A DNA stretch of 64,000 bases from an uncultured Acidobacteriota bacterium (lineage in GTDB: Bacteria; Acidobacteriota; UBA6911). Positions 1 to 53,428 of the stretch are shown in pieces. The stretch's first letter is position 1, and each line of letters starts with the position of its first letter. The notes below the pieces were generated by a model. The model was not told where the DNA came from. It saw only the letters and a list, made by a program, of their open reading frames with translations, and made no database searches. The stretch is from contig CAWJKZ010000024.1 in NCBI GenBank assembly GCA_963843575.1, forward strand, positions 181,313 through 245,312, written 5' to 3'. A program made the translations under genes and the position numbers.

Positions 1-126
1 TCGTCTACAACTCCGGGGAGATGTCGCCCGTCGAGCCCGACGCGACGCGAGGTCGCCAAGGTCGGCCGCAACGATCCCTGCCCGTGCGGGAGCGGCAAGA
101 AATTCAAAAAGTGCCACGGTAAATAG
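1..126 (+). CDS. secA: Preprotein translocase SecA, C-terminal zinc-binding tail (partial, runs off the window start)
   Basis: Frame 1 translates to ...[25 protein letters not shown] followed by a stop at 124-126. This is the characteristic SecA C-terminal CxCxSGKK(Y/F)KxCHG zinc motif. Upstream residues look frame-disturbed. Confidence 0.6.
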
Positions 127-205
127 GTGCCTGCGTCGGGTTTCCGCCGATCCCGCCCGGACAGGCTTCGAGGCCCGAACTTCATTCCGATCGACAGAAA
201 AAGCC

Positions 206-2423
<2,218 letters not shown>

Positions 2424-12920: not shown

Positions 12921-15574
12921 GTGTCCACCCAAAGATCTTGGATCCCCGGCCTCATTCTCCTGCTGTCGCTGACGGCAAGCGGTCGACCTGCGCCGCCCCA
13001 GGAGCCCCCAAGCCAGAATCGGCCCACCATGAACGAGCAGGAACGCCGCAAGGTGATGGAGCGCCTGCTGGAACAGATGAAGCGCCCCGGAGCCGATGCC
13101 CAGCAGGGCATCCGCCCCGCGCCCGAGCAGCCGCCGCAGGGATCCGCGCCGGTGCCGACCGTCGTCCAGCGGGCGCCCATCGGCAGCGACCAGGTGCAGC
13201 TCACCTACGACAACGCCGACCTCTACGAGTTCGTGAACCAGATTGCCGACACCCTGGGGATCACCCCCATCGTGATCGATCCCGAGGTCAAGGGGACCGT
13301 CACGATTCACAGCTCCGCGCCGATGTCCAAGGAAGACATCTTCCCGCTCTTCAACCTCATCCTCAAAAACAACAACGCCGCGCTCGTCAAACAGGGTAAC
13401 ATCTACCAGATCGTCCCGACGTCGGCCGCCCTCAAACGGGGGCTCGAGATCATCGACCACCTGCCGCCCGTGGCTCCCCCGCGCACCTCCCAAGGAGCAG
13501 CACGAACTGCCGAAGGGGAACGGGACGTCGGCCGCCGACCACGGCGCCCGCGCAACAGCCGCCGGCCGGCACTGCCCCCAAGACTCCACCGCAGCCCAGG
13601 CCGTCCACAGTCCCGCAGGCCGTGCCCGTGACGCCCCAGGCCCCGTCCGAGCCGCGCCCGCGGCGGCCCCGGGGCAGGCCGCAGCCGCCCCCGCCGTGCC
13701 CCGGCTGGCCACGCACGTCCTTCGAGTGGAGTTTGTCCCGGTCCGCGACCTCATCGAGCCGCTGAAGCTGTTCATGACCGACGGGGGCGTGATCATGCCC
13801 TACGACCGGCTGAACATGCTGATCGTGACCGACTACAGCGACAGCGTCGCCAAGGTCATGGAGATCATTCGCCTCCTCGACGACAATTATCTCAACGCGG
13901 ACCTTATCGAACTCATCAAAATCAGATACAACGCCTCGCGCCGACGTCGTCGAGGACCTGAAGAAGATATTCGGTGCCGGCACGAAAGAGTCGACGACCG
14001 GCATTTATTTCGTTTCGCTCGACCGCGTGAACTCCATCCTCGTCATGGCCAATTCCAAACGCGCCCTCGAAGAGGTGAAGCGCTGGATCAAGGAACTGGA
14101 TGCGACCACCGGTCGAAGCGTGCAGACGTTCGTCTACACCGTCGAGAACTCCACCGCCTCCAATATCGCCATGATCCTGTTCGGCCCTGTACGGCGGTGA
14201 AGGCGGGAGCTCGGGCGTCCGGCGGCTCGGAACGGGGCAGCTCCGGCCCGTACGGCGTCGGCAGGCTCGGGACCGGCACTCAGGGCGGCTGGTCGGGGGA
14301 ACCACGGCCACGCCGTTCGGCAACACGAACGATCGGCGGCTTCGGGTCGACGGGGTACCGGCAGCACGTACGGCGGCGGCAGCTTCGCTCCGGGGCTTTC
14401 GGCCAGGGCTCGAGCATGTACGGCGGCGGCATGTACGGCGGCGGCGGCTTCGGGGGAGGCGGCTTTCGGCGGCGGGTGGCTTCGGCGGCGGCGGATTCTA
14501 CGGCGGCGGCCAGCAGCTGGGCCCGCGCCTGAATCAGAGCTCCGGCGTCTCGTCGCAGATCCTGCGCGGGGGAGCATTCTCCGGCCTGCAGGACACCGTG
14601 CGCATCGTCACCGACGACATGAACAACTCGCTGATCGTGCAGGCCAGCGCTGCCGACTACGCCTATATCGCGGAGATCATCCGAAACTGGACGTGCTTCC
14701 GCGCCAGGCGATCATCGACGCGCGCATCTTCGAGGTGGACCTGACCGACGCGCTTCAGCTTCGGCGTCGCCGCCACCCTGCAGGCGAAAAGCGGCGAGCA
14801 CCTGACGACCGCCGCGAAGTCGGCCACCACCGGGGCCCTGAGCACCAGCACGTTCGCATTCATCGGCAATGCCAGGGAGATCCTGCTGAACATCGACGCC
14901 CTGCGTCAGAAAACGAAGGTCAGGATACTGGAGGCCCCTTCAGTGCTGGCGCTCGACGGGACGATGGCCCGGATCACCGTCGGCGGCGAGGTCCCATACC
15001 CCGGTGGAAGCTACATCGGCGCCGCCGGCGGGACGGCGACGAGCGTCCAGTACCGCGACACTGGCATCTCGCTCATCGTCATGCCGCGGATTTCGGCGTC
15101 GGGCACCGTGACCCTCGATGTCGCCCAGGAAATCAGCAGCGCGGGCGCGCCGACGAACGACGGGCCCAACGTTCAACAAGACGAGCGTCGCGACTACGCT
15201 GGCGGTGCGCGACGGGGAGACGGTGGCCATCGCCGGCCTTATCCGCGACTCCAACAATATAGCGCGCAGCGGTGTGCCGTTTTTCTCCGAGATCCCGCTG
15301 CTCGGAAGCCTCTTCGGCCGTACCAACCGGAGCGCCAACCGGAGCAGAACTGCTGATCCTCATCACCCCGCACGTCATCCGTAATCCTGAACGTTTCCAG
15401 GAGATGACCCAGGAGCTCAAGGACTCGCTCCGCAATGTCCGCAAGCTGGTCGATCAAAAGAAGGAAGAGCACGTCGAGGACGTCGAGGATGCCCGCAAGG
15501 ACCGCGTCCGCGAACGCGAGAAGCAGCAGAAGAGCCAGGAGCCCCAGCCCGCGGAGAAGCCGCCGCAGCCGTAG
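12921..15574 (+). CDS. gspD: Type II secretion outer-membrane secretin GspD (about 6 frameshifts)
   Basis: Signal peptide, then an N0 domain (VQLTYDNADLYEFVNQIADTLGITPIVIDPEVKGTVTI), N1-N3 repeats, and a Gly-rich linker (GGGMYGGGGFGGGGF). The secretin core is present (VLALDGTMARITVGGEVPY, TSVATTLAVRDGETVAIAGLIRD, SGVPFFSEIPLLGSLFG, ELLILITPHVI). Stop TAG at 15572-15574. Confidence 0.85.
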
Positions 15575-15576
15575 CA

Positions 15577-15653
15577 TGGAGTGCGGCGGCTCGACGCCGA
15601 CGCGGATCTCGGTCTCGAAATGCGGCGTCGAGCCGTCGAGCCGCCGCACTCCA
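15577..15653. repeat. REP-like palindromic element immediately 3' of gspD
   Basis: TGGAGTGCGGCGGCTCGACGCCG ... CGGCGTCGAGCCGTCGAGCCGCCGCACTCCA: inverted arms of about 20 bp with a ~25-nt loop. Starts 3 nt after the gspD stop. Confidence 0.7.
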
Positions 15654-15715
15654 CATTCTGCGCTGCAAAAAACCGCTCTCCGTGTTTGGATCTTCGTATT
15701 ACACTCGCGGGCATC

Positions 15716-16903
15716 ATGGCACATCTGGTCCGGCTCGAGGTGAATGCGGGGCGCAGCGACGCGGTCGAGTTCCGAGTGCGGAACTGCGCGGTCGACCGGC
15801 TGCAGGGCGTCACCCTCGCGCTGGAGGGCCAATCGGTCGAACTGGGCGAGATCGCAGCCGGGGAATCCCGGCTGCCGGTGGTCGCCGCCGCGGCCGGCTC
15901 CTCGGTCGAGCTGGTCGTGGACAACCACGTGTACCGCGGGCGGATCGATCTCGAGCTGAACATCCACCGCCTCGAAAGCTACGCCGGCAACGACCTCGCC
16001 GGCATGCTGAGGAGCGCGGGCGACGAGCGCGAGCTCAACGAGGACCGGGTGCGGGAACGGATCGCCCGGGGCGAGCCGTGGTGGGTCGATGTCGGGCTGG
16101 AGCTCGACGAGGCGGAGACCTCGCGCCGGTCGACCGAGTCGCGAAGTTTCTTCTGCGTCCCTGATGCGCCCTGCCCTGCTCGCGCATCCAAGGCGCTGCT
16201 GGAGAGCGCGGACCCGGCGGAGCCGCGGCGCATCTTCCTCTACTCGTCGCCCGAGGTCCGCTTCGGGCGCAACACGCAGAAGAACGACGCCGTGCTGCGC
16301 TTCCTCCCGGATTTCTTCGGCGACGAGCGCAGCAAGACCATCAGCAGCGAGCAGTTCGTCGCCCGCTCGGCCGGCGAGGGCTGCACCCTCACGCTGTCGC
16401 CGCAGGGGCGCGCCCCCCTGACCTGCAACGGGAAGGTGGTCGAGCAGGGCAAGCAGTTGCCGCTCGCGACCGGGGACGAGATCAGGATCGGGGCGCACGA
16501 ATTCACACTCAGGGTTTATTGCGAGCCGCGCACGAACGACCACGGCTGGCTGCGCACCCGTGAACTGGCCTTGCGGCTGGATCCGGGCGACGATCATTTC
16601 GCCGCCTGCCCCTGGGATTTCGTGAGTTTCTCGCGCACCGCGAACGGCCCCGAGGAGGAGTACTGCTGGCTCTTCCGGAAAGCGGACATCGGCTGGGCAC
16701 CCGGCGCAGGCCTCCGGCTCGGGCAGCCGGGGGCGCGCCTGTCATTCTGGAACGGGCGCTACTATGTCGAGGCCACCGATCCCGCCAGGGAGGTGAAAGT
16801 GGGCGGCCGCCGGCTGCTCCCGCGCGAAGCGGCGTGCCTCGGGACCGAGACGGAAATCGCGCTCGGCACGCGGACGTTTCGCTGGACCCTGGTGCAGGCA
16901 TGA
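15716..16903 (+). CDS. FHA-domain protein
   Basis: Intact ORF (ATG at 15716 within the 15581 ORF). FHA signature VRFGRNTQKNDAVLRF...TLTLSPQGRAPLTCNGKVVEQGKQLPLATGDEIRIGAHEFTL, plus a second weaker FHA-like segment near the C-terminus. Confidence 0.65.
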   Translation: MAHLVRLEVNAGRSDAVEFRVRNCAVDRLQGVTLALEGQSVELGEIAAGESRLPVVAAAAGSSVELVVDNHVYRGRIDLELNIHRLESYAGNDLAGMLRSAGDERELNEDRVRERIARGEPWWVDVGLELDEAETSRRSTESRSFFCVPDAPCPARASKALLESADPAEPRRIFLYSSPEVRFGRNTQKNDAVLRFLPDFFGDERSKTISSEQFVARSAGEGCTLTLSPQGRAPLTCNGKVVEQGKQLPLATGDEIRIGAHEFTLRVYCEPRTNDHGWLRTRELALRLDPGDDHFAACPWDFVSFSRTANGPEEEYCWLFRKADIGWAPGAGLRLGQPGARLSFWNGRYYVEATDPAREVKVGGRRLLPREAACLGTETEIALGTRTFRWTLVQA

Positions 16904-22236: not shown

Positions 22237-22320
22237 GATTGGCTATCATAAAACAAAAAGCGTACGGCGGAGGATGCGGAAATCTCCGGCCGTTTTCCCT
22301 GACACGTTTTCCCGTTCAAT

Positions 22321-22331
22321 TGTGCTATAAG
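22321..22331 (+). promoter_or_regulatory. Candidate extended -10 promoter (TGcTATAAG) for the + strand operon starting at 22378
   Basis: TGTGCTATAAG sits about 45 nt upstream of the 22378 start, in a 140-bp divergent intergenic region. No good -35 hexamer. Confidence 0.3.
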
Positions 22332-22377
22332 GGGGCGTTCGCAAAACAAGTCAGCTCGAAGGGTTACCGCAATCGCC

Positions 22378-23241
22378 ATGCACCGGTTGACGGATCCATT
22401 CTGGGCATTCTGGGGCAGGATCCTGCTCAAGCCCGTGGCGTTGGTCGTGCTGAGCGCCTCGATGCTTTTCGAGGGCTATCACCTCCTCGCCCCGTCCGGG
22501 GACAGCCTCGGCGGCATCCGCCGCGATCTCGCCGAACAGGTCTGCGGCAAGGCCGTCGACGAGCTGCCGAAGATGAACGGCGTCCCGTCCCTCGCGGTTC
22601 TCAACCTCGCCGGCGACGACCAGGGGCTCGTCACCGAAATCCTGCGCGCGCGGCTCGAAGCTTCCGGCGAGTTCCGCCTGATGGAGCCCGGCTTTTTCAG
22701 GAAGCTCCTGCGCGAATTCGGCAAGGAGGAAGCGCCCGTCTCGCGTCTCGCCGACGCGGTCGACATGGCCCGCAAGCTCGGGGTCGACCTGGTCCTCTTC
22801 GGCGAACTCCCGGAATTCAAGGCCTCGGCCGACCGTGCCGCGATCCGGCTCGAGCTGCGGATGGCCGAGCGCGCGACAGGCCAGGCTTTGTTCGCGCGCA
22901 GCTACTCGGAGAGCGTGGGCAGCGGCCCGGGTCGTTTCAGCTGGCGCGCGCGCATGGCGGGGAGCGCCAAGGGGCGCAGGATATTCATCTGGGTCGCGTT
23001 CACCCTGCTGCTCCCACTCCTGACCGTCCCCTTGATCCGCCGCATCATCTCGGTCGAATCGAATCTCGTCAACCTCGTCCTGCTCGTGGCCTACACGGCC
23101 GTCGACCTGGCGCTCGCGTTCTTCCTGACGGGCTTCTGGATTCCCGGGATCTGGACCGCGGTCGTGCTGCTGCTCGCGCTCGCGGCGAGCGCTCTCTACA
23201 ACTACGTGATTGCTTCGTTTATCGAAGAGATGAGTCACTGA
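22378..23241 (+). CDS. Hypothetical membrane protein, first gene of the ESCRT-like cluster
   Basis: Intact 287-aa ORF. N-terminal TM segment and a soluble middle region. The C-terminal third is strongly hydrophobic (IFIWVAFTLLLPLLTVPLI...IPGIWTAVVLLLALAASALY). Confidence 0.5.
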   Translation: MHRLTDPFWAFWGRILLKPVALVVLSASMLFEGYHLLAPSGDSLGGIRRDLAEQVCGKAVDELPKMNGVPSLAVLNLAGDDQGLVTEILRARLEASGEFRLMEPGFFRKLLREFGKEEAPVSRLADAVDMARKLGVDLVLFGELPEFKASADRAAIRLELRMAERATGQALFARSYSESVGSGPGRFSWRARMAGSAKGRRIFIWVAFTLLLPLLTVPLIRRIISVESNLVNLVLLVAYTAVDLALAFFLTGFWIPGIWTAVVLLLALAASALYNYVIASFIEEMSH

Positions 23242-23251
23242 GGTAACCGAT

Positions 23252-23848
23252 ATGGCTCTGTTCAAATCCAAAGAAGAGCGGCGCATCGAAAGGAACATCC
23301 AGATCCGCAAGGCCGTGACCCAGATCCGCCGCCAGATCGCCTCCAACGGCAAACACGAGAGCGATTACATCGCCAAGGCGAAGAGAGCCCGGAAAATGGG
23401 CTGGGACAACCAGTACGAGTTCCTCAAGAAGGCGATCAAGAAGACCGCCACGATCAAGGTCCGGCTCGAGCGGCAGCTGCTGGCGCTGGAATCCGCCGTG
23501 CAGATCAAGGAGCAGGCCGAAGGGCACCACGAGTTCGCGAGCGCGATGAACGCGCTGTCGAAGTCGATCGCCGAGGTGTTCGGCGCCACCGACATGGCCA
23601 AGACCCAGGTCAATTTCGAGAAGGCGATGTCGCAGGCCGAGAGCCTGGAAGAGCGGATGGACACGTTCCTCGAGATGACGTCCGAGTCGATGTTCGACTA
23701 CGAGGGGAGTTCCGAGCGCGAGCTCGTCAGCGACGGCGACATCGACAAGATGCTCGAGGAGGAAGTGCAGCACGAGGAACGCGAAGGGATAGACGAAGAA
23801 ATCGACAAGGACATTTCGGCCATCCAGAAGGAAATCGAGAAAAAATAA
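23252..23848 (+). CDS. ESCRT-III (Snf7/CHMP)-like protein 1
   Basis: Intact 198 aa and all alpha-helical. Basic N-terminal helices (KAKRARKMGWDNQYEFLKKAIKKTATIKVRLERQLLALESAVQ) are followed by an acidic C-terminal tail ending DEEIDKDISAIQKEIEKK, which is MIM1-like. Length and charge polarity match Snf7-family proteins. Followed by MIT-AAA gene. Confidence 0.65.
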   Translation: MALFKSKEERRIERNIQIRKAVTQIRRQIASNGKHESDYIAKAKRARKMGWDNQYEFLKKAIKKTATIKVRLERQLLALESAVQIKEQAEGHHEFASAMNALSKSIAEVFGATDMAKTQVNFEKAMSQAESLEERMDTFLEMTSESMFDYEGSSERELVSDGDIDKMLEEEVQHEEREGIDEEIDKDISAIQKEIEKK

Positions 23849-23850
23849 TG

Positions 23851-23887
23851 TGGAGTGCGCGCCTCGGCGCCTCGACGCCGCACTCCA
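23851..23887. repeat. Short REP-like hairpin (TGGAGTGCGCGCC...GACGCCGCACTCCA) between ESCRT-III-1 and Vps4-like-1
   Basis: Shares the arm motif GGAGTGCG / CGCACTCC with the other copies and sits in the 43-nt intergenic gap. Confidence 0.6.
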
Positions 23888-23891
23888 GAAG

Positions 23892-24998
23892 ATGAATACG
23901 ATGCAGTTCTTCCTTGATCAGTACGAGAAGAACAAGGACCAGGGGCTCGACTATCTCAAGGTCGGGGACTACGAGCAGGCAGGTTACCACCTGCTCCTCG
24001 CGGCGAAGTACCTGCTGACCGCGGCGCAGCGGTCGGAGCCGGGGCTCAAGAAAGTGAGACACGCGAAGGCGTTGAAGCTGCGCGAGCTCGCGCTCTCGGC
24101 GAAGGGTCGGACTCCCCCCAGGAAGGCTGCGGGGGCCAGGGACCAGGACGGCGATCTGACGCCCGAGAGCAAGTGGATTGTCTCCGAGAAGCCGAACGTC
24201 CGGTTCGACCAGGTCGCCGGCCTCGCGGACGTCAAGGAAGCGATCAACCTGCGCGTCATCCTGCCGTTTCGCAATCCCGACGCCGCGAAGCGCTTCAGGA
24301 AGAAGGCGGGGGGCGGCATCCTCCTGTACGGACCGCCGGGCACCGGCAAGACGATGATCGGCAAAGCGGTCGCGACCGAGCTCGACGCGCAGTTCCTCAA
24401 CGTCAAGAGCTCGAACATCATGTCGCCGTGGGTCGGGGTGGCCGAGCAGAACCTCGCGCGGCTGTTCGAGGTGGCGCGCCGGTATCCCATCTCGGTGATT
24501 TTCCTGGATGAGACCGAGGCCCTGGTCGGGAAGCGCGGCAGCCAGTCGACCGTGATGAACCGCGTAGTCCCGGAGTTCCTCTCGCAGGTCGACGGACTCG
24601 ACCCGAAGGTGAACTGCATCCTGCTGATGGGGGCCACGAACCGGCCGTGGGACATGGACGAGGCGGCCCTGCGCACCGGGCGCTTCGGCGAGATGATCTA
24701 CGTGGGTCTCCCCGATGCCGCGGCCCGCGAACAGATACTCCATTTCCACCTGGACGGCATCCCGATGGCGTCCGACATCGACCTCCCTGCCCTGGCGGCG
24801 AGGCTGGACGGCTTCAGCGGAGCGGACATCGCGGGTGTCTGCATCAAAGCGACCGATTTCCCCTTTCAGCGGCAGATCCGCTCGGGGGCCGACACGATTC
24901 TGACCAAGGAGGACCTGGACCGGGCCGCTGCGGAAGTCGTCCCGTCGGTGACCCAGGCCATGCTGGAGCGCTATCGCAAGTTCGCGGAGGCGAGGTAA
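23892..24998 (+). CDS. Vps4-like AAA+ ATPase 1: N-terminal MIT domain plus a meiotic-clade AAA domain plus a Vps4_C-like helix
   Basis: Intact. MIT-like three-helix N-terminus (MQFFLDQYEKNKDQGLDYLKVGDYEQAGYHLLLAAKYLLTAAQ...KVRHAKALKLRELA). SEKPNVRFDQVAGLADVKEAINLRVILPF...GGGILLYGPPGTGKTMIGKAVATE closely parallels eukaryotic Vps4 (PNVKWSDVAGL...ILP...[22 protein letters not shown]). Pore loop SPWVGVAEQ, Walker B VIFLDE, and C-terminal SVTQAMLERYRKFAE. Confidence 0.8.
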   Translation: MNTMQFFLDQYEKNKDQGLDYLKVGDYEQAGYHLLLAAKYLLTAAQRSEPGLKKVRHAKALKLRELALSAKGRTPPRKAAGARDQDGDLTPESKWIVSEKPNVRFDQVAGLADVKEAINLRVILPFRNPDAAKRFRKKAGGGILLYGPPGTGKTMIGKAVATELDAQFLNVKSSNIMSPWVGVAEQNLARLFEVARRYPISVIFLDETEALVGKRGSQSTVMNRVVPEFLSQVDGLDPKVNCILLMGATNRPWDMDEAALRTGRFGEMIYVGLPDAAAREQILHFHLDGIPMASDIDLPALAARLDGFSGADIAGVCIKATDFPFQRQIRSGADTILTKEDLDRAAAEVVPSVTQAMLERYRKFAEAR

Positions 24999-25022
24999 CG
25001 CCGCCCGCTTTGGAGTCGACCG

Positions 25023-25718
25023 ATGAGTGACCCCGTAAGCCACAGCCTCCCTGCCGCGCCGCGCTGGGGCGAACTCTTCCTCGAGCGGTTCGACCTGAAC
25101 GTGCGCGCCTGCGGCGCCGTCGTGCACCCGGCCGACGGGACCGTGCTCAAGGTCAATCCGAAGATGCTGGGGCAAACTTTCCGCCGGGACTTCGGCGAAG
25201 TGGTGCTCTTCTCGCTCTCCGCCGGCCTCATCGCCAGATCCCGCCTGCACCTGGCCGCCATCCGGCTGAACGACGGCGTCCCCGAGCCGGAACTCCTGCG
25301 CCGCGTGGGCGGTCCCGACGGACTCGATTTCGTGGGCGATCATTTTTACTCCGTCGGGTTGTTCGCGCCCGGCGGCTGGCCCGAAGAGTGGAAGGCACAG
25401 GCGGCGCTGCGCGGCAACGCGCTGTTCTACCTGGTCGAGAAGGGGGACGGAACCGGCTGGGGCGTGTTCGGCCCGGAAAACCCTCTCCTGCGGCTGTTCG
25501 ACCCCGAGACGACCATCGAGAAGGCGGCCCGGGCGGCGCAGGCCCTCGCGGGGCACCCACGGCTCGTGATGCCGGGGGACCAGGTCGAAGCCGGCGCGTT
25601 CGCCGCGGAACTGCGCCTGGACGCGGAGGCCCTGGAGAAAGCGCTGGCAGCTTCGCAGGGGCGCTTCCACAAGATGGAGTACAAGGGCAAGACCTACATA
25701 CAGCGGTCAATCCGGTAG
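25023..25718 (+). CDS. Hypothetical protein (231 aa) embedded in the ESCRT-like cluster
   Basis: Intact ORF with an RBS-like sequence upstream. No recognisable domain. Confidence 0.4.
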   Translation: MSDPVSHSLPAAPRWGELFLERFDLNVRACGAVVHPADGTVLKVNPKMLGQTFRRDFGEVVLFSLSAGLIARSRLHLAAIRLNDGVPEPELLRRVGGPDGLDFVGDHFYSVGLFAPGGWPEEWKAQAALRGNALFYLVEKGDGTGWGVFGPENPLLRLFDPETTIEKAARAAQALAGHPRLVMPGDQVEAGAFAAELRLDAEALEKALAASQGRFHKMEYKGKTYIQRSIR

Positions 25719-25726
25719 GAGGAATC

Positions 25727-26338
25727 ATGTCCGTGATGGAGAAACTCAGAGCGCTGTTCCAGAGCGAGAGTCTGCCGGACGAGACGCGCCAGCTTTACAG
25801 CAGGGCGTCCACGCCGCACGAACTCATCAAGGAGCTGGAGGGGTTGCGGGGCCGCAACGAGGTCGACCTGCGCGAGAACGAGCAGGAGCTGATCGGGCTC
25901 GAGAAGGCGGTCCTGCTGGAGGAGGACGCCGTGCGCCGGGGAGGGATGACCCCGACCGAAGAGACGATCGTGCTGCGCCGGATCGAACGGCTGCAAAAGC
26001 AGCGGGAGAACCTCGACCGGCAGGTCTCGATCTACAACGAAAACGTCAACCTGCACCTCAACCTCATCGCCAGAATCCAGGAGATGGAGGCGATGCGCTC
26101 CCGCGGGGTCGCCGAGGACCAGATCGACCGGCTCGTCGAGGATGTCGAGGGGCACGTCGAAGAGTACAAACGGGTGAGCATTGCGGCCGAAGGGGGCTCG
26201 ACCATGGGTTCGGCCATCGACCACTCGGCCGAGCGCCGCCGCCTGGACGAGATCAAGAACCGCATCCTGGCCAGGGACAGGGAACGTCCACGCGCCGCGG
26301 ACGAGGAACCCGTCGAACCCCCCAAAGACCTGGAGTGA
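25727..26338 (+). CDS. ESCRT-III (Snf7/CHMP)-like protein 2
   Basis: RBS TAGGAGG precedes the ATG at 25727. 203 aa, helical. Core ENEQELIGLEKAVLLEEDAVRRGGMTPTEETIVLRRIERLQKQRENLDRQVSIYNENVNLHLNLIARIQEME. The C-terminal RLDEIKNRILARD resembles the Vps2-type MIM1 (D/E-L-x-x-R-L-x-x-L-R-R-D). Confidence 0.65.
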   Translation: MSVMEKLRALFQSESLPDETRQLYSRASTPHELIKELEGLRGRNEVDLRENEQELIGLEKAVLLEEDAVRRGGMTPTEETIVLRRIERLQKQRENLDRQVSIYNENVNLHLNLIARIQEMEAMRSRGVAEDQIDRLVEDVEGHVEEYKRVSIAAEGGSTMGSAIDHSAERRRLDEIKNRILARDRERPRAADEEPVEPPKDLE

Positions 26339-26374
26339 TCCCAGCTATCACGATTCATCAAAGGAGATCGAATC

Positions 26375-26995
26375 ATGAACCTGATCGAAAAGCTGTTCAG
26401 CAAATCGCCCACCGCGGCGGACCTCCGGGTCCAGCTCAAGGAGATCGAAAGGGACCAGAAGAAGAAGCGGCGCGACCTCGACATCGTCGAGCGCAACAAG
26501 CAGCAGAAGGTCAAGGAAGCCGTCGCCGCAAAGAAGAATGGCAAACAGGAGGTGCTCCGGGACATCTTCCGGGAGATGCGGCAGATGGAGATCGAGAACG
26601 GCTATGCAAACGCCGACCTGCGCCGCCTGTCGCTGGCCAAGACCGCGCTGACGTCCTTCCTGCGCAAGATGGAGATGCTCGAGCGGAAGAAGGACCGGAA
26701 GAGCCTGCAGAACCTGATCGTGCGGTTCAAAGACAGCTCGATCCAGAAGGCGATCGACACGGCGGAAGTCGACGACGACACCTTCAACGACATGCTGGAA
26801 GAGATCCTCGGCGAAGAGGAGTTGTCGGTCACGCAGGGGAGGGTGAAAGAAGATACCGGGTTTGCCGACTTCGACCGGGCGATCGGCGAGATGGCGAAGG
26901 CCGAGGAGGCCGGTTCGGACGAAGAGGATCTCAACAAGTTCCAGGAAGAGATCGACAAGGCCGTCCGGGCGGAAAAAGTGCGGGACGAGGCGTAG
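26375..26995 (+). CDS. ESCRT-III (Snf7/CHMP2-like) protein 3
   Basis: 206 aa. N-terminal half LRVQLKEIERDQKKKRRDLDIVERNKQQKVKEAVAAKKNGKQEVLRDIFREMRQME parallels the CHMP2 helix-1/2 pattern (...AAKKGQKD...). Acidic C-terminus DDDTFNDMLEEILGEEEL...EEDLNKFQEEIDKAVRAEK. Confidence 0.7.
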   Translation: MNLIEKLFSKSPTAADLRVQLKEIERDQKKKRRDLDIVERNKQQKVKEAVAAKKNGKQEVLRDIFREMRQMEIENGYANADLRRLSLAKTALTSFLRKMEMLERKKDRKSLQNLIVRFKDSSIQKAIDTAEVDDDTFNDMLEEILGEEELSVTQGRVKEDTGFADFDRAIGEMAKAEEAGSDEEDLNKFQEEIDKAVRAEKVRDEA

Positions 26996-27019
26996 CAGGG
27001 GTTCTGGAGGCCTGATCAC

Positions 27020-28240
27020 ATGGACGTCGACCTGAGCGGGCCGCTGAAAGTGTCGCTGGACAAGACACTGGCCGAGGCGCGGGAGCTCGAAGGGCAGAAC
27101 AAGGGCCAGGAGGCGGCCGTCGCCTACCTGAAGGCGTCGAAGCTGATGAAGAGCTACGCCGACTACGCGCTCACCCGCGACGACCAGGTGCGGAGGCGCC
27201 AGAAGGCGCGGCAGTACCTGGAGTGGGCCGAGGCGCTCAAGGCCGGCAAGCGGCGGGTGGCCGCAGCCGCCGCGCCCGTGCGGGCTGCACCGGTTGCCGG
27301 CGGCGTCAAGGAGGCCGCCGCCGGGGACGAGGAACAGTACTCGCGCGACATCGCGTCGCTGATCCACCGCAGCAAGGTGACGTGGGACAAGATCGGCGGG
27401 CTCGAGGAGACCAAGCGTGAGATCAAGTTCACGTACGGGCTCGCGCTGGCCCGGAAACCGGAAGGGATGAAGCTCGCGGGGTGGCGCCGCATGCTCTTCT
27501 ACGGGCCGCCCGGGACCGGCAAGACGTTGCTGGCGGCGGCTACCAGCAACGGGCTGGGCGCGACCTTCTTCAACGTCAAGGCGAGCAACCTCCTGTCGAA
27601 GTACTTCGGCGAGTCCTCGAAGCTGATCACGGAGCTGTTCGACGCCGCCCGGAGCGAGGCCGACGAAGGCTTCGCCGTCATTTTCATCGACGAGGTCGAG
27701 TCGCTCTGCCTGCCGCGCGGCGACGGCTCGGAGAGCGGCGCCGAGAGGCGCGTCCTGTCGACGATCCTGTCGGAGCTCGACGGGCTGGCGGACAAGGGTG
27801 AGGACCGGTTCGTCCTGACCATCGCGGCGACCAACGCGCCGTGGGACCTCGACGACGCGGTGCTCAGCCGCTTTCAGAAGAGAATTTACATCCCGCTGCC
27901 CGACGCCGAAGCGCGCAAGTCGATACTCGAGATCCTGCTGCTCAAGGCGGGCCACACGCTGGACTACCCGCTCGGGGAGGTCATCGAGCACTCGGAGTGG
28001 TTCAGCGGGCGCGACCTGGAACGGCTGGCGAACCAGGCGGTCAACGTCATGGTCGAGGAACTCAACAGCCAGATTCCGCGCTGCGTCGACGCCGGGCGGG
28101 AGTCGATCGAGGGCTACCAGCTCAAGGTGCGCCCGCTCGGCAAGAGCGATTTCGACGAGGCGTTCCGGCGCATACGGGTGGACGTGGACCGGCTGAAAAA
28201 GCTGGAGACGCGCTTTCGCGAGTTCGCAGAGAGCAATTGA
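27020..28240 (+). CDS. Vps4-like AAA+ ATPase 2 (MIT-like N-terminus plus meiotic-clade AAA)
   Basis: Intact 406 aa. MIT-like helices (AVAYLKASKLMKSYADYALTRDDQVRRRQKARQYLEWAEALK). Walker A FYGPPGTGKTLLAAA, pore loop LSKYFGESSKL, Walker B VIFIDEVESL, and a C-terminal helix LKKLETRFREFAE of Vps4_C type. Confidence 0.75.
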   Translation: MDVDLSGPLKVSLDKTLAEARELEGQNKGQEAAVAYLKASKLMKSYADYALTRDDQVRRRQKARQYLEWAEALKAGKRRVAAAAAPVRAAPVAGGVKEAAAGDEEQYSRDIASLIHRSKVTWDKIGGLEETKREIKFTYGLALARKPEGMKLAGWRRMLFYGPPGTGKTLLAAATSNGLGATFFNVKASNLLSKYFGESSKLITELFDAARSEADEGFAVIFIDEVESLCLPRGDGSESGAERRVLSTILSELDGLADKGEDRFVLTIAATNAPWDLDDAVLSRFQKRIYIPLPDAEARKSILEILLLKAGHTLDYPLGEVIEHSEWFSGRDLERLANQAVNVMVEELNSQIPRCVDAGRESIEGYQLKVRPLGKSDFDEAFRRIRVDVDRLKKLETRFREFAESN

Positions 28241-28258
28241 GGACTTCCGGGGAATCCG

Positions 28259-29230
28259 ATGGCGGTTTGCGGTCAGTGTAAACAGGACGGCGGGGAAAAG
28301 AAGTTCTGCACCAACTGCGGCGCGCCCATGGTTGAGCCGGCCGCGCCCGCTCAGAAAGCGCAGGCGTCCGGGGTGCGGCTTGGGGACATCGGGTTCGTGA
28401 AGGGGAACATCACCGACTCGAGCACGGTCACGACGACCACCACCAACGTCGGGCAGATCAACATCGGGATGCCTGCCGGCACGTCCCCCGCGGCCCCGTG
28501 TTGCCCCATCTGCGGCGAGTACCCGGAGCTGCGCGAGAGCTTCCGCTGCATGGCGTGCGGGCGCGACTACATCTGCAAGAGGCACCGCCACCCCGAGCAA
28601 AGGATCTGCACCGCGTGCGTCCGCCGGCGCGAGATGGTGTGGGTGCCGCCGGGCGGATCGTTCGACGGGTTCTGGATGGACCGTGCGAAGGTGACCTGCG
28701 AGGCCTACCGGCGATTCCTGGTGGCCAATCCCGGCTGGCAGAAAGGGAGCGTCGATGGGAAGCGCCACGACGGCTACTATCTCAGGGATTGGAACGGGAA
28801 CGACTACCCGGCCGGGAAGGGCGGCCAGCCGGTGGTCTACGTCAGCTGGTACGCGGCCCGCGCCTGCGCGGAGTGGTCCGGGAAGCGGCTCCCGACCGAG
28901 GCCGAGTGGGAGTACGGCTGCCGCGCGGGAACGAACACGGCCTACTGGTGGGGGGACGAGTTCGCCCTGGGGCGGGCCGCCGAAGCCAACCCTTGGGGAC
29001 TGCGCGGCATGTCGGGGTGCCTGTGGGAGTGGACGTCATCGCCCTTCAGCGACGACCCCGCGGATGCGGGGCCGCGCAGCTGCCGCGGCGGCTCGAAATG
29101 GGGGGATGCGGCCGAAGCCCGCTCCTCCGCGCGCAGCGGCCGCGCCCCGAGAGGCTGCAGCGTGATGGTCGGTTTCCGGTGCGTCGAGAGCGGAGACTGT
29201 CCAACGACGAAGCCACTCGACCAGATGTGA
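28259..29230 (+). CDS. Zinc-ribbon protein with a C-terminal FGE-sulfatase (SUMF1/EgtB/PvdO-type) domain
   Basis: N-terminal CGQC...CTNCGAP ribbon plus a second Cys cluster. The C-terminus carries FGE-sulfatase hallmarks (VYVSWYAARACAEWSGKRLPTEAEWEYGCRAG...RGGSKW). Confidence 0.65.
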   Translation: MAVCGQCKQDGGEKKFCTNCGAPMVEPAAPAQKAQASGVRLGDIGFVKGNITDSSTVTTTTTNVGQINIGMPAGTSPAAPCCPICGEYPELRESFRCMACGRDYICKRHRHPEQRICTACVRRREMVWVPPGGSFDGFWMDRAKVTCEAYRRFLVANPGWQKGSVDGKRHDGYYLRDWNGNDYPAGKGGQPVVYVSWYAARACAEWSGKRLPTEAEWEYGCRAGTNTAYWWGDEFALGRAAEANPWGLRGMSGCLWEWTSSPFSDDPADAGPRSCRGGSKWGDAAEARSSARSGRAPRGCSVMVGFRCVESGDCPTTKPLDQM

Positions 29231-29233
29231 TTC

Positions 29234-29327
29234 AAGTGGGTCTGGGCTTCAGCCCGGACGTCTTTTGATCTGAGCTATACAGCTAAGCATGCGCTGTATA
29301 GCGACCGACGAACCAGCGTCCCACTTG
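29234..29327. mobile_element. MITE-like element copy: 27-bp arm AAGTGGGTCTGGGCTTCAGCCCGGACG, an internal palindrome GCTATACAGC...GCTGTATAGC, and a degenerate right arm
   Basis: Same arm as the copies at 46132, 53298, 55168 and 58699. Starts 3 nt after the stop of the FGE-domain gene. Confidence 0.65.
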
Positions 29328-29360
29328 AGGACTTTCGCTTGAGGCACTGAGGTTTGCTAG

Positions 29361-30869
29361 ATGATGATGGATGCCGCGGACCAATTGAAGGAGCTGCTTC
29401 TCAAACTCAAGCAGAACCTCCCGCTCACGATCGCGACCACGATCGTAATGAGCATCCTCGTCATATCATGGAAAAAACTCCTTCATTTTGCGAAACGCAG
29501 ACTCGGTTTCGAAGAGCCTCCCAAGGAAGTCCTGAAACCCTCGCTCCCTGAAGGCGATTTTGCCCGTCTGTCGACGCTCGACAAGTTCCGTTCCGGCTTC
29601 TCGGTGCCCTTCGGCTGGCGCGGCGCCGTCGTCGACGCCGGCGTGGTTCAGCGTGAGCTCGGCCCCGGCCGCTACCGCCGGCGCGCCGTCGCGAAGATAA
29701 TCGCCTCCCTGCGGCTCGGCGAAAACGCGCACGTCGTCTTCTGGCGGGACCAGGAGTTCCCCGTAGTGCTCTATCTCCGTGATCTCTTCGCCTCCGACCA
29801 CCAGCCCATGCAGCTCGAGATCCGGAGCACGGCCCGGGTGCGGCCCGATCGTCTGACGCACTCCTCCCCGGAGGAGATCAACCGCGACCCGGCCTGCTGG
29901 GCGGAGGATCTCTCGGCCGGCATCGCGGTTGCCGCCCGCCAGTGGGTGGCCGGTATGGCGGCAGAGGCGCCGTATCACAACGCGGCCAAGCTCTCCGAGT
30001 GGTGCGACGTGGCTGCCGGCTGGATCCGGTCCGCCCTCGAGCGCTCGACTTTCGAACTGGTGCGAGTTACCGGGTTCCGGTTGTTCAGCCCGGTGCTCGA
30101 CAAGGTCTTCGCCGAATACGGCGAGGCGGCGCTGGAGCACGAGGCCGCGCGCCGCGAGGTGGAGCGCAACAAGGTGCGCGGGGCGCTGCGCCAGGCCGTG
30201 CTCGCCGGCCAACTGGAGGAGGTCCGGGACCAGAGCGAGCACGAACAGGCGGTGCGCGCCATCGAGCAGGAAAAAGAGCTCCGCGAGAAAGCCCTGCGGC
30301 AGGAACTGGCGCAGGCCGAACTCACGGAACTGGAAGACAAACTGAGACTCTGGAAGAAGAAGCAGGACCTGTTGCTCCAGACGCTCGACCTGTCGGGGCA
30401 GGACTCCGCCCGGCAGTTTGATGCCCCCGACTCGCCGTTCTCCGCCCACGAGCGCGAACAGATCCGGGCAGTGCTGCAGAGTCAAAGGGCGATGTCGACG
30501 CAACCCGAGGAAGTGCTCCCGCTGCTCGCCCGCAGCACAGAGATCCAGTGGGCCGCGTTCGACCCGCTTGCCCGGATCCGCGGCCCGCACACGCTGCGCG
30601 TCGGCGAGGGGTGGCGGTTCTTCGACGGGGTGAGCCTGTGGAGAATCGTGCTGACCCGCATCGACACGCGTCGTAACGGGTTCTTGTGGCAGCGGGAGAC
30701 GCCGTCGCGCGCGTATTTCGAAGTGCGCGGCACGCCCGACGGCCGGCGCTACGAGCAGGTTGTCGAACTGAACAAACACTTCCGGCTGAGCGCCGGCCCC
30801 CACGAGATGAGTGTCGACTTCATCGGCGGCAGCGCGAGCCGGATTTCACTCCAGGTAGGCCAGGCCTGA
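29361..30869 (+). CDS. Membrane-anchored SPFH/band-7-like protein with a long coiled coil
   Basis: Intact 502 aa. TM helix LPLTIATTIVMSILVIS is followed by an SPFH-like segment (AVVDAGVVQRELGPGRYRR...HVVFWRDQEFPVVLYLRDLFASDHQPMQLEIRSTARV) and a coiled coil of about 120 aa. Confidence 0.45.
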   Translation: MMMDAADQLKELLLKLKQNLPLTIATTIVMSILVISWKKLLHFAKRRLGFEEPPKEVLKPSLPEGDFARLSTLDKFRSGFSVPFGWRGAVVDAGVVQRELGPGRYRRRAVAKIIASLRLGENAHVVFWRDQEFPVVLYLRDLFASDHQPMQLEIRSTARVRPDRLTHSSPEEINRDPACWAEDLSAGIAVAARQWVAGMAAEAPYHNAAKLSEWCDVAAGWIRSALERSTFELVRVTGFRLFSPVLDKVFAEYGEAALEHEAARREVERNKVRGALRQAVLAGQLEEVRDQSEHEQAVRAIEQEKELREKALRQELAQAELTELEDKLRLWKKKQDLLLQTLDLSGQDSARQFDAPDSPFSAHEREQIRAVLQSQRAMSTQPEEVLPLLARSTEIQWAAFDPLARIRGPHTLRVGEGWRFFDGVSLWRIVLTRIDTRRNGFLWQRETPSRAYFEVRGTPDGRRYEQVVELNKHFRLSAGPHEMSVDFIGGSASRISLQVGQA

Positions 30870-30970
30870 CGGATTTTTGAAAATTCGAGATTCTTCGAGT
30901 CTTGGAGCCTTCGAGGTGGGATTGGAATCCCCCTCGACGACCATTTCACCAGACGCATCGGAGGCACGCC

Positions 30971-33031: not shown

Positions 33032-33038
33032 GCGGAAA

Positions 33039-33063
33039 GCGGCGCCGAGGCGCCGCACTCCAT
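33039..33063. repeat. Half-copy of the REP-like element (GCGGCGCCGAGGCGCCGCACTCCA) 3' of the flotillin-like gene
   Basis: Carries the CGCCGCACTCC arm preceded by the GGCGCC-GA-GGCGCC palindrome. Confidence 0.5.
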
Positions 33064-33074
33064 AGGGGGCAGCC

Positions 33075-34439: not shown

Positions 34440-34476
34440 GCAAGTACCGCAGGCTTTTCGATTGAGGTGAGCTGTC

Positions 34477-36132: not shown

Positions 36133-36135
36133 TGT

Positions 36136-36194
36136 GGAGTGCGGCGCCTCGTCGCCGGCCGTATGGAGTGCGGCGCCTGGGCGCCGACGCCTCT
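36136..36194. repeat. Two tandem REP-like arms (TGGAGTGCGGCGCC... twice) 3' of the kinase gene
   Basis: TGGAGTGCGGCGCCTCGTCGCCGGCCG followed by TATGGAGTGCGGCGCCTGGGCGCCGACGCC, 4 nt after the kinase stop. Confidence 0.6.
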
Positions 36195-36377
36195 GGCTAG
36201 GTTCGGCACAGGAAGGCAGGCGGCGCCGAGGCGCCGCCGGGGAAAGTGGCGCCGGCCGTGGCCGCGGCCGGCGCCCGAAGCGAGCGGAGGAGAGCGGCGG
36301 CATGTTCGGCAGGGACTGACGCCCGCCAAATCCCTTGCCGGCCGCGCGCCGACGCTCCACTCACCCCATCCCAAAAT

Positions 36378-45793: not shown

Positions 45794-46131
45794 CTGCATG
45801 CTTTATTCCCTTGTCCCAAAATCGCTTCCGGGAATCTGCACCCTGGAGGGGGCCAGGTAATCGTCTGGGCCGGAATGACCGGCGGCAAGCTTTGAACTCG
45901 CCCTAGGGGAGCCTGGAGGGGCTTTCATCACCATGCGATTCTCCATGAGTGGGTGTTTTATTACGGAGAGGTCAAGACAAACAATTCGTGGAGTTACCCA
46001 TTCTTGAATGGGTATAACTACTCAGTGGGCCTTGAGTGGGGATCTTTGAGATTCTTAGGGTCCTTTGAGACTTTGAGGTAAAGCTAAAATTCGCCTCGAA
46101 GACTCTAACTAACGGCCCGTCCCTCGCGCTC

Positions 46132-46299
46132 AAGTGGGTCCGGGCTTCAGCCCGGACGCAGTTTGCGGTCGCTATGCAGGGCAGGTGGAGCTGTATGGAA
46201 CGGATTTAAAGACGTCCGGGCTGAAGCCCGGACCCACTTGGTTTACGGGCAGGGCGGACGGTTAACCGTTGGACGGCCTCTGAAGCCCGGACCCACTTG
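46132..46299. mobile_element. MITE-like element, full copy: arm, about 55-bp spacer, inverted arm, about 40 bp, and a third partial arm
   Basis: AAGTGGGTCCGGGCTTCAGCCCGGACG at 46132-46158. Its reverse complement is at 46213-46239. Partial CTGAAGCCCGGACCCACTTGG at 46279-46299. Architecture matches the 55168 copy, including the shared GGTT.AACCG.TGGACG.CCTCTGAAGCCCGGACCCAC segment. Confidence 0.75.
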
Positions 46300-53221: not shown

Positions 53222-53268
53222 TCAATAAAGGGGGTAGCTCCCTCACCGGGGGCTACCCCCTTTTTGTG
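53222..53268 (+). terminator. Rho-independent terminator
   Basis: GGGGGTAGC-tccctcaccgg-GGGGCTACCCCC followed by TTTTTGT, 18 nt after the stop. Confidence 0.8.
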
Positions 53269-53297
53269 TGTCGCAATAAGCAGGCGCCAAATAAAGC

Positions 53298-53385: not shown

Positions 53386-53428
53386 GGGAGGCGGCGCCGC
53401 ACTCCAATTTCTGCTATCATCCCCTGCC

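What the first reader, a model, noticed from the sequence alone, without database searches (positions are those of the whole stretch)
15577..15653. REP-like hairpin family GGAGTGCGGCG(N)CGCCGCACTCC marking 3' ends of + strand genes
Copies or half-copies lie at 1687-1789 (after guaB), 15577-15653 (after gspD), 23851-23887 (between ESCRT-III-1 and Vps4-1), 33039-33063 (after the flotillin-like gene), 36136-36194 (after the kinase, two tandem arms) and 53389-53407. All start within about 10 nt of a stop codon. Arms are perfectly complementary, so the transcripts would fold into long GC-rich stem-loops. These are candidate intrinsic attenuators, mRNA stabilisers or REP/BIME-type elements, and likely operon punctuation inside the ESCRT-like cluster.
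Basis: seen in the sequence. Interest (0 to 1): 0.55.

Follow-up and report, generated by a model that had tools for sequence, protein, structure and literature searches.

The report
REP/REPIN repeats with a GGAGTGC tag
The hairpins are real copies of a selfish-type bacterial repeat (REP/REPIN elements) whose partner enzyme, a RAYT tyrosine transposase, sits between identical repeats in many other genomes, so they are an ordinary kind of element in a little-described sequence variant.

Summary
The 11-mer GGAGTGCGGCG occurs 9 times in the window against 0.18 expected, at exactly the six intergenic loci listed. A covariance model built from unrelated metagenomes finds 11 units there and nothing else.

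The unit is T-GGAGT, an 18-nt GC-rich hairpin (GCG...CGC), then usually TTT. It occurs as head-out inverted doublets, a short double-headed palindrome, a singlet, a three-unit cluster and a remnant.

The same frame, with covarying stems, is found in at least seven phyla. A protein-based search gave 80 metagenomic loci encoding a REP-associated tyrosine transposase (RAYT; NCBIfam NF047646; only PDB relative E. coli TnpA_REP 4ER8). Of these, 71 carry such units within 400 bp of the gene (3.66 per kb against 0.12 per kb elsewhere; permuted heads give 0).

So these are REP/REPIN elements with a non-canonical GGAG(T) tag instead of GT[AG]G. They are not intrinsic terminators: there is no T-tract and none is flagged by the scan. 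They are absent from the orthologous intergenic sites of relatives, so they are lineage-specific insertions, not conserved operon punctuation.

Five of six loci start 2-4 nt after a stop codon. By analogy with E. coli REPs, this could affect translation or stability of the upstream message. That is untested.

Verdict: new member of a known kind, modest interest.

The parts
1685..1715 (+). REP unit (TCT-GGAGT-GCGGCGGCTCGGCGCCGC-TTTCC). Left half of a head-out doublet (REPIN) spanning 1685-1790, 3 nt after the guaB stop codon.
   Evidence: CM R1 43.4 bits, E 8e-8. Sequence. Inverted repeat I3. Fold -74.8/-78.8 kcal/mol.
1760..1790 (-). REP unit, right half of the doublet. Its 18-nt hairpin GCGGCGGCTCGACGCCGC is identical to units next to RAYT genes in L168, L224 and L228.
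   Evidence: CM R1 38.1 bits..
15575..15605 (+). REP unit with a degenerate 3' half. Left half of the doublet 15575-15655 (the reported interval). It starts 3 nt after the TAG at 15572-15574.
   Evidence: CM R1 23 bits. Arms 100% complementary over 20 nt (I7). Fold z -7.6/-9.4.
15617..15655 (-). REP unit carrying an internal 8-nt duplication (GGCTCGAC GGCTCGAC). Right half of the doublet.
   Evidence: CM R1 26.9 bits. Sequence.
23849..23889 (.). Short palindrome with a TGGAGTGC head at both ends ('double-foot' form, as expected from a central deletion of a doublet). It fills the 43-nt spacer between the 198-aa gene and the AAA ATPase gene.
   Evidence: CM R1 16.4 bits (+) and 10.7 bits (-).. 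AAA domain of the downstream gene.
33034..33064 (-). Single complete REP unit, antisense to the flanking + strand genes. It fills the spacer between the SPFH/Band-7 gene stop (33031) and the next ATG (33075).
   Evidence: CM R1 43.5 bits, E 8e-8 (best hit in the window)..
36133..36159 (+). Degenerate REP unit, first of a three-unit cluster after the Ser/Thr kinase gene (stop 36130-36132).
   Evidence: CM R1 15.6 bits..
36162..36196 (+). Degenerate REP unit, second of the cluster, in direct orientation to the first.
   Evidence: CM R1 18.5 bits..
36218..36237 (-). Headless hairpin core (GCGGCGCCTCGGCGCCGC), inverted partner of the two units above.
   Evidence: CM R1 17.3 bits, model positions 9-28 only. 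Inverted repeats I14 and I17.
53386..53408 (-). REP remnant: head TGGAGTGCGGCG plus a shortened stem. It abuts a doublet of a second, unrelated REP family (53297-53386).
   Evidence: CM R1 18.3 bits..

Best explanation
The hairpins are REP (repetitive extragenic palindrome) units, and the long ones are REPIN-type inverted doublets. They belong to a family whose unit is T-GGAGT, an 18-nt GC-rich hairpin (GCG-variable stem-loop-CGC), then usually TTT.

Shown:
- The family is the repeat that flanks genes for one clade of REP-associated tyrosine transposases (RAYT / TnpA_REP, HUH-Y1 enzymes).
- It is widespread across phyla.
- The copies in this window are lineage-specific, because relatives have empty sites.

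Inferred from the E. coli, Stenotrophomonas and Marinomonas RAYT work:
- A RAYT encoded elsewhere in this genome binds the folded single-stranded hairpin plus the conserved 5' tag.
- It then cuts and rejoins the DNA, which spreads or rearranges the units.
- Copies survive mainly just past stop codons, where they do least harm.

Inferred and untested: once co-transcribed, the stem-loops sit 2-4 nt after the stop codon. There they could hinder terminating ribosomes or block 3' exonucleases, changing the output of the upstream gene. They do not act as canonical intrinsic terminators.
For: - Over-representation and intergenic location.
- Doublet architecture: head-out inverted doublets 30-200 bp long are the commonest arrangement among loci with two or more units in other genomes, as at 1685-1790 and 15575-15655.
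- First RAYT example: in L085 (Ca. Hydrogenedens) a 185-aa ORF flanked on both sides by units is a RAYT. NCBIfam NF047646 gives E 2e-22, 79.6 bits, 0.4 below the curated cut-off of 80; Pfam Y1_Tnp gives E 2e-4, 21.9 bits, below its cut-off of 23.
- RAYT clade: all 30 aligned homologues match NF047646 at E <= 0.001 (best 2e-31). HUH histidines and the catalytic Tyr are invariant. The only PDB relative is E. coli TnpA_REP 4ER8, E 3e-8.
- Association test: 80 loci were retrieved by protein similarity alone. 71 have one or more units within 400 bp of the gene, and 43 of 63 evaluable loci have them on both sides. Density is 3.66 per kb near the gene against 0.117 per kb elsewhere. Six permuted heads give 0 units; of three single-substitution heads, GGAGCGC gives 8 and GGCGTGC gives 1.
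- Exact subtype: units with the very hairpin seen in the window (GCGGCGGCTCGACGCCGC) lie 20-51 nt from RAYT genes in L168, L224 and L228.
- Conservation pattern: head and tail are conserved while stems covary.
- Empty sites: relatives lack the element at orthologous positions.
- No target-site duplication is visible at the doublet ends, as expected for Y1 enzymes.
- Across 132 elements in other genomes, a long ORF ends within 60 nt in 63% against 25% for random positions.
Against: - No RAYT gene lies in the 64-kb window (tblastn). The rest of the source genome could not be read, so a cognate enzyme in this organism is assumed, not shown.
- The tag is GGAG(T), not the canonical GT[AG]G that defines most described REPs.
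- Mobilisation by RAYTs has not been demonstrated in vivo for any family of this type.
- The covariation count is inflated, because units were selected for 6 or more perfect stem pairs.
- Any effect on mRNA or translation is pure analogy.
Confidence: 0.85

Rival explanations
1. The hairpins are intrinsic (Rho-independent) terminators or attenuators that evolved to punctuate operons, including the ESCRT-like cluster.
For: They are GC-rich stem-loops right after stop codons. In many other genomes the unit ends in TTT(T).
Against: No window copy has a T-run after the stem, and none is among the terminator-like sites. A genuine terminator-like hairpin with a T-run exists separately at 53227-53263. 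The unit at 33034-33064 is antisense to its genes. Relatives with the same gene order lack the elements. The same units flank RAYT genes.
Confidence: 0.05
2. They are REPs by origin, but in this genome they are retained because they act at the RNA level. As 3' stem-loops they would protect upstream mRNA from exonucleases. [quoted passage not shown]
For: Five of six loci begin 2-4 nt after a stop codon. [quoted passage not shown] 2015, as summarised in PMC12306157). The predicted folds are very stable. ORF ends are enriched next to elements family-wide.
Against: There are no expression data. The elements are not conserved at orthologous sites, so no gene depends on them across the lineage. Family-wide, only 20% lie within 10 nt of an ORF end. 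Proximity to stops can result from purifying selection alone, because short spacers leave no other place.
Confidence: 0.3
3. They are miniature inverted-repeat elements (MITEs) derived from a DDE-type insertion sequence, the GGAGTGC hairpins being its terminal inverted repeats.
For: The doublets have 20-31-nt terminal inverted repeats around a variable core. In several loci the RAYT itself lies inside a head-out pair, like a gene inside an IS.
Against: No target-site duplication flanks the doublets. The gene found between units is an HUH-Y1 enzyme, not a DDE transposase. Each 'TIR' is itself a hairpin of constant 18 nt with covarying stem, which fits ssDNA hairpin recognition. Singlets and direct pairs also occur.
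Confidence: 0.04
4. They are copies of a structured non-coding RNA gene or cis-regulatory RNA motif.
For: Conserved sequence frame with compensatory stem changes. Strong folds.
Against: No Rfam family reaches its gathering score. At a lax threshold only generic long-hairpin (miRNA precursor) models match, far below threshold. Units occur in both orientations relative to genes and as symmetric doublets. A 31-nt unit has no room for a ligand pocket. The association is with a DNA enzyme gene.
Confidence: 0.03

Closest known systems
E. coli REP/BIME elements and their RAYT (TnpA_REP, YafM; PDB 4ER8)
   Same: Short GC-rich extragenic palindromes with a conserved 5' tag. They are often in inverted pairs, mostly just downstream of genes. 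The HUH-Y1 enzyme gene is itself flanked by the repeats. The RAYT clade found here matches 4ER8 (E 3e-8) and NCBIfam REP_Tyr_transpos.
   Different: The tag is GGAG(T) rather than GTAG. The hairpin is a perfect, short, constant 18-nt stem-loop rather than a bulged imperfect palindrome. A conserved TTT follows the stem. The enzyme has HYH instead of the E. coli HuH residues and is only distantly related.
REPINs of Pseudomonas fluorescens (Bertels and Rainey 2011, PMC3116915)
   Same: Two inverted REP units separated by a short spacer form a long hairpin of about 100 nt, as at 1685-1790 and 15575-15655. Singlets are interpreted as decayed doublets. The partner is a single-copy RAYT.
   Different: Different sequence and tag, and a different RAYT group. 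REPIN-RAYT systems are described as lineage-restricted and vertically inherited, whereas this frame is shared by at least seven phyla.
GTAG- and CGTC-tagged REP superfamilies (Di Nocera et al. 2013, PMC3733652)
   Same: The concept of a superfamily defined by a short unpaired tag next to a variable stem-loop. Members occur as monomers, dimers and clusters, mostly after coding regions, in many phyla including the Planctomycetes-Verrucomicrobia-Chlamydiae (PVC) superphylum.
   Different: Neither tag matches. No GGAGTGC sequence occurs in that paper's text or held supplements. The second family in this window (GTGG...CGTC ends) does fit those classes.
Repeats flanking the Chloroflexus aurantiacus tnpA_REP ABY36092.1 (Quentin et al. 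2018, PMC6006769, Table S1)
   Same: The listed sequence GGAGTGCGGCAGCCATGCTGCCG has the same head and the same hairpin frame next to a RAYT gene. This is a previously catalogued member of the family.
   Different: It is recorded only as a table row under subclass 2.2. It is not described as a cross-phylum family, and variants there read GGCGTGC.

Membership tests
REP / REPIN (RAYT-associated repeats) | Short (20-40 nt) palindromic unit present in many copies, essentially confined to intergenic DNA | tested here: met
   11 units at six intergenic loci in 64 kb. 9 exact 11-mers against 0.18 expected.
REP / REPIN (RAYT-associated repeats) | Canonical GT[AG]G tetranucleotide at the 5' foot of the hairpin | tested here: not met
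   The invariant head is GGAGT, with the hairpin starting at GC (159 of 159 fixed-length units). A conserved tag exists, but it is GGAG(T), not GT[AG]G.
REP / REPIN (RAYT-associated repeats) | Units commonly arranged as inverted pairs separated by a short spacer (REPIN/BIME) | tested here: met
   Doublets at 1685-1790 and 15575-15655. The head-out (+,-) pair is the commonest arrangement among loci of other genomes with two or more units.
REP / REPIN (RAYT-associated repeats) | A RAYT (HUH-Y1) gene flanked by the same repeats (REPtron) | tested here: met
   Met in other genomes: L085 and 71 of 80 protein-retrieved loci. All 30 aligned enzymes match NF047646 at E <= 0.001, though the founding member scores 79.6 bits, just under the curated cut-off of 80. 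Not shown for the source genome: no RAYT in the window.
REP / REPIN (RAYT-associated repeats) | Presence/absence differences between related genomes at orthologous sites | tested here: met
   L232 and L233 (guaB-sigma spacer) and L234 and L235 (two spacers of the ESCRT-like cluster) lack the element, and show no units in about 60 kb.
REP / REPIN (RAYT-associated repeats) | Binding and cleavage of the single-stranded unit by the cognate RAYT | not testable with these tools
   Needs purified enzyme and oligonucleotide assays, as in PMC8266576.
Intrinsic (Rho-independent) terminator | GC-rich stem-loop followed at once by a run of T on the transcribed strand | tested here: not met
   The stems are present, but the tails read ATATGAG, ACATTCT, AGAAGAT, ATAGGGG. 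No copy appears in the terminator-like lists.
Intrinsic (Rho-independent) terminator | Orientation fixed relative to the upstream gene | tested here: not met
   The singlet at 33034-33064 is antisense. Doublets are symmetric.
MITE of a DDE insertion sequence | Terminal inverted repeats plus target-site duplication, with a related full-length IS carrying a DDE transposase | tested here: not met
   No direct repeats flank the doublets. The associated gene is a Y1 enzyme.
Curated structured RNA family (Rfam 15) | Match at or above a family's gathering score | tested here: not met
   0 matches in the window. Only sub-threshold miRNA-hairpin models at 1684-1792.

The most novel reading that the evidence does not exclude
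The GGAGTGC-hairpin-TTT frame may define a third tagged REP superfamily, beside GTAG and CGTC. It has a constant 18-nt hairpin and is tied to one RAYT clade (HYH motif).

It spans at least seven phyla: Acidobacteriota, Planctomycetota, Verrucomicrobiota, Armatimonadota, Chloroflexota, Hydrogenedentota and some Pseudomonadota. Stems have diversified by compensatory change, while the tag stayed fixed.

That breadth would argue against the view that REP sequences are species-specific and REPIN-RAYT systems strictly vertical. It would also give a clean natural mutational series for how RAYTs read tag versus stem.

In the papers I could search, it appears only as one supplementary-table row.
Probability: 0.45. 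Interest if true: 0.45.

Novelty: new member of a known kind. Interest (0 to 1): 0.3.

Why it matters
For this window, the result removes a tempting over-reading. The hairpins inside the ESCRT-like cluster are recent repeat insertions, not conserved regulatory punctuation, and relatives with the same genes lack them.

For annotation, these units explain spurious small ORFs (MECGG..., ...PPHSK) and odd start-codon calls in GC-rich soil and sediment genomes.

More broadly, the family links a non-canonical tag to a defined RAYT clade across many little-studied phyla. This extends the REP/RAYT picture beyond Proteobacteria. It also offers many natural tag-constant, stem-variable substrates for testing how these enzymes recognise DNA.

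The tight 2-4 nt spacing from stop codons makes these copies good test cases for REP-mediated control of translation termination outside E. coli.

Tried and rejected
- Rfam at gathering threshold on the whole window gave nothing. At a lax E-value only generic long-hairpin miRNA models matched, far below threshold.
- Full-text search for the 11-mer and its complement returned only unrelated primer sequences.
- The pair of units in L028 about 1.5 kb apart was checked for a transposase. The ORF list showed only short ORFs with no HUH or tyrosine motif by eye (no family search was run), so it was dropped. L129 likewise.
- Exact-protein look-ups to find the source contig failed for two window ORFs and for the 100%-identical P0241. 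The cluster look-up gave no name. The organism is therefore inferred only from its nearest named homologues, which are Acidobacteriota.
- tblastn of the RAYT against the window and the first 151 loci found only L085 itself. Because of this, the association was tested through a protein-based metagenome search instead.
- A test of G-U wobble asymmetry, to separate RNA-level from DNA-level selection, was considered and dropped. Doublets put both orientations in one transcript, and my unit definition required perfect Watson-Crick stems.
- tRNA or tmRNA origin was excluded.

Full report
**Observation.** The reported interval 15577-15653 is a 77-nt palindrome. Its outer 20 nt on each side (TGGAGTGCGGCGGCTCGACG / CGTCGAGCCGCCGCACTCCA) are perfectly complementary. 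The 11-mer GGAGTGCGGCG occurs 9 times in the 64-kb window on both strands, against 0.18 +/- 0.41 in dinucleotide-preserving shuffles. The 8-mer TGGAGTGC occurs 11 times against 2.25.

As RNA, the two long elements fold at -62 to -79 kcal/mol with z-scores of -7.6 to -9.4 on either strand. 'Perfectly complementary' is true only for 15577-15653. The 1684-1791 arms are 90% complementary, and the 23851-23887 palindrome is imperfect.

**Anatomy.** Written in its own orientation, the unit is T-GGAGT-GCGGCG(S)C-loop-G(S)CGCCGC, followed in the best copies by (A/T)TTC. The window holds these forms:
- two head-out inverted doublets (1685-1790 and 15575-15655);
- a short palindrome with a head at each end (23849-23889);
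- one complete singlet, antisense to its neighbours (33034-33064);
- a cluster of two direct degenerate units plus an inverted headless core (36133-36237);
- a remnant (53386-53408).

There is no direct repeat of flanking sequence at the doublet ends.

**Gene context.** Pfam confirms an ECF sigma factor after the first element, an AAA ATPase after the third, an SPFH/Band-7 zinc-ribbon protein before the fourth, and a Ser/Thr kinase before the fifth. IMP dehydrogenase lies before the first.

Five loci begin 2-4 nt after a stop codon; the stop at 15572-15574 belongs to a 100-aa ORF with no Pfam match. The sixth lies about 185 nt after the stop at 53204, behind a terminator-like hairpin (53227-53263) and a doublet of another repeat family. 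Two elements (23849-23889 and 33034-33064) fill the whole 43-nt spacer between co-directional genes.

**The same motif elsewhere.** The pattern GGAGTGCGGCG-N2-10-CGCCGCWTT has 31 hits in IMG/VR contigs with G+C from 0.49 to 0.73.

The hosts are Acidobacteriota, Planctomycetota, Verrucomicrobiota (including Kiritimatiellia and Lentisphaerae), Armatimonadota, Chloroflexota, Hydrogenedentota and a few Pseudomonadota. Next to the forced matches, further units appear with other stems (GCGGGAGC..., GCGCGGAC..., GCGGTGAC...) but the same GGAGT head and TTT tail. Among loci with two or more units, the commonest arrangement is a (+,-) head-out pair 30-200 bp long.

**The partner gene.** In L085 (Candidatus Hydrogenedens) two units in inverted orientation bracket a 185-aa ORF. 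This ORF matches NCBIfam NF047646 'REP-associated tyrosine transposase' (E 2e-22, 79.6 bits, just under the cut-off of 80) and, more weakly and below its cut-off, Pfam Y1_Tnp (21.9 bits against 23).

It has 470 homologues at E <= 1e-10, several named REP-associated tyrosine transposase by NCBI. In an alignment of 30, the HUH histidines (NHYH) and the tyrosine of YVHxNP are invariant. All 30 match NF047646 at E <= 0.001. The only solved relative is E. coli TnpA_REP, 4ER8 (E 3e-8).

**Test of the association.** Using the protein alignment alone, 80 metagenomic loci encoding this enzyme were fetched. I then counted GGAGTGC heads followed by a perfect stem of 6 or more bp:
- 71 of 80 loci have at least one unit within 400 bp of the gene.
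- 43 of 63 loci with sequence on both sides have units on both sides.
- Density is 3.66 per kb next to the gene against 0.117 per kb in the rest of the loci.
- Six permutations of the head give 0 units. The single-substitution heads GGAGCGC and GGCGTGC give 8 and 1, against 229 for GGAGTGC.

Units with exactly the window's hairpin (GCGGCGGCTCGACGCCGC) lie 20-51 nt from the gene in L168, L224 and L228. Common layouts are doublet-gene-doublet, or the gene inside one head-out pair.

**Conservation pattern.** Of 192 distinct units from these loci, 159 have the same length, with an 18-nt hairpin. The head GGAGTGC was the search anchor, so its invariance is by construction. The base before it is T in 140 of 159, and the three bases after the hairpin are T in 136-149 of 159; neither feature was used for selection.

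On 85 distinct hairpins the stem is 93.5% paired, with 137 double changes against 29 in shuffles. The outer six pairs were a selection criterion, so only the inner two pairs (69% and 79% paired), the head controls and the tail are independent evidence.

A covariance model built from these 85 foreign units finds the six window loci (11 hits, 10.7-43.5 bits) and nothing else below E of about 0.2.

**Terminators.** No window copy is followed by a T-run, and none is in the terminator-like lists. The scan does pick up a convincing hairpin plus T-run at 53227-53263.

**Relatives.** The window is probably from an acidobacterial MAG. The nearest named homologues are Acidobacteriota (IMPDH 84%, AAA ATPase 78%). 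One window protein is 100% identical to a protein on a 520-kb NCBI/ENA contig.

Contigs of relatives keep the gene order SecA-guaB-ECF sigma-...-T2SS E/F (L232, L233) and the ESCRT-like cluster (L234, L235). In all four, the spacers that hold the element in the window contain unrelated sequence. The block TTAGACTTTC before the sigma gene is conserved right next to the window's doublet. No unit occurs in about 60 kb of these relatives. The copies are therefore lineage-specific insertions.

**Family-wide position.** For 132 elements in other genomes, a long ORF ends within 10 nt in 20% (random positions 7%) and within 60 nt in 63% (25%). This agrees with the known preference of REPs for gene 3' ends (PMC3733652).

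**Literature.**
- Di Nocera et al. 2013 define GTAG- and CGTC-tagged REP superfamilies, and RAYT genes flanked by REPs or by other inverted repeats. No GGAGTGC sequence is in the text or held supplements.
- Quentin et al. 2018 classify TnpA_Y1 enzymes. Their Table S1 lists GGAGTGCGGCAGCCATGCTGCCG beside the Chloroflexus aurantiacus tnpA_REP ABY36092.1, so one member has been catalogued.
- Corneloup et al. 2021 show that RAYTs process folded single-stranded REPs and have co-evolved with them.
- REPs less than 16 nt from a stop codon lower translation in E. coli (Liang et al. 2015, as cited in PMC12306157).

**Interpretation.** Identity as REP/REPIN elements of a RAYT-associated family is well supported (0.85). 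Three steps are inferred:
- that a cognate RAYT exists in this genome;
- that it mobilises the units through single-stranded hairpin recognition;
- that the tag GGAG(T) plays the role of GTAG.

Any effect on upstream mRNA or translation termination is an analogy that fits the 2-4 nt spacing but is untested (about 0.3). Terminator, DDE-MITE and RNA-gene readings are disfavoured. The kind is known, the tag and breadth are little described, and interest is modest.

Noticed in passing
window 29240-29259, 46131-46299, 53297-53386, 55160-55332, 58705-24: A second, unrelated repeat family: (C)AAGTGG-GTCCGGGC-TTCA-GCCCGGAC-G. It occurs mostly as head-out inverted doublets (fold -88 kcal/mol at 53296-53386) and carries a canonical GTGG 5' tag and a CGTC on the other strand. 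There are at least 8 units in the window, all in its right half plus one at 29240. This looks like a classical GT[AG]G-type REP/REPIN family co-resident with the GGAGTGC family.
   Followed up: partly
window 1-1684: The IMP dehydrogenase gene is readable only by switching frame at least five times (frames 3-1-2-3-1-2), although its product is about 90% identical to intact homologues. Exact-protein look-ups of two other window ORFs also fail. This suggests an indel-rich (long-read) assembly rather than a pseudogene. ORF boundaries in this window should be treated with care.
   Followed up: partly
window 53227-53263: A 16-bp perfect hairpin (AAAGGGGGTAGCTCCC...GGGGGCTACCCCCTTT) followed by TTTTTGTG, 23 nt after the stop at 53204. 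It is the best intrinsic-terminator candidate in the window and is distinct from both repeat families.
   Followed up: no
window 22300-36132; L234 8330-21122; L235 8420-18163: The cluster of small coiled-coil-like proteins, two AAA ATPases, a Ser/Thr kinase and an SPFH/Band-7 protein with double zinc ribbons keeps its gene order in two relatives with 77-80% identical ATPases. One relative has an extra S8 peptidase gene and a kinase fused to an FGE-sulfatase domain.
   Followed up: no
L173, L179, L187, L196, L221 (flanks of the RAYT gene): Some RAYT genes are flanked by arrays of 4-9 units at 70-150-nt spacing, often alternating two hairpin types. This is reminiscent of the Y/Z alternation in E. 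coli BIME clusters.
   Followed up: no
window 15581-16903; L028 8431-8742 and 8681-9244: Units are read into open frames as recurrent peptide strings (MECGGSTP..., ...SSRRTP, ...PPHS). The mechanical ORF at 15581 starts inside the repeat, whereas the likely start is the ATG at 15716. These repeats are a source of spurious or over-extended gene calls in GC-rich genomes.
   Followed up: partly
L001-L031 (IMG/VR contigs): The motif occurs in 31 stretches of contigs classed as viral. One 42-kb contig (IMGVR_UViG_3300009537_004357) carries four units of exactly the window's subtype between small phage-like genes. Whether these are prophage regions invaded by host REPs or misclassified host DNA was not resolved.
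   Followed up: no
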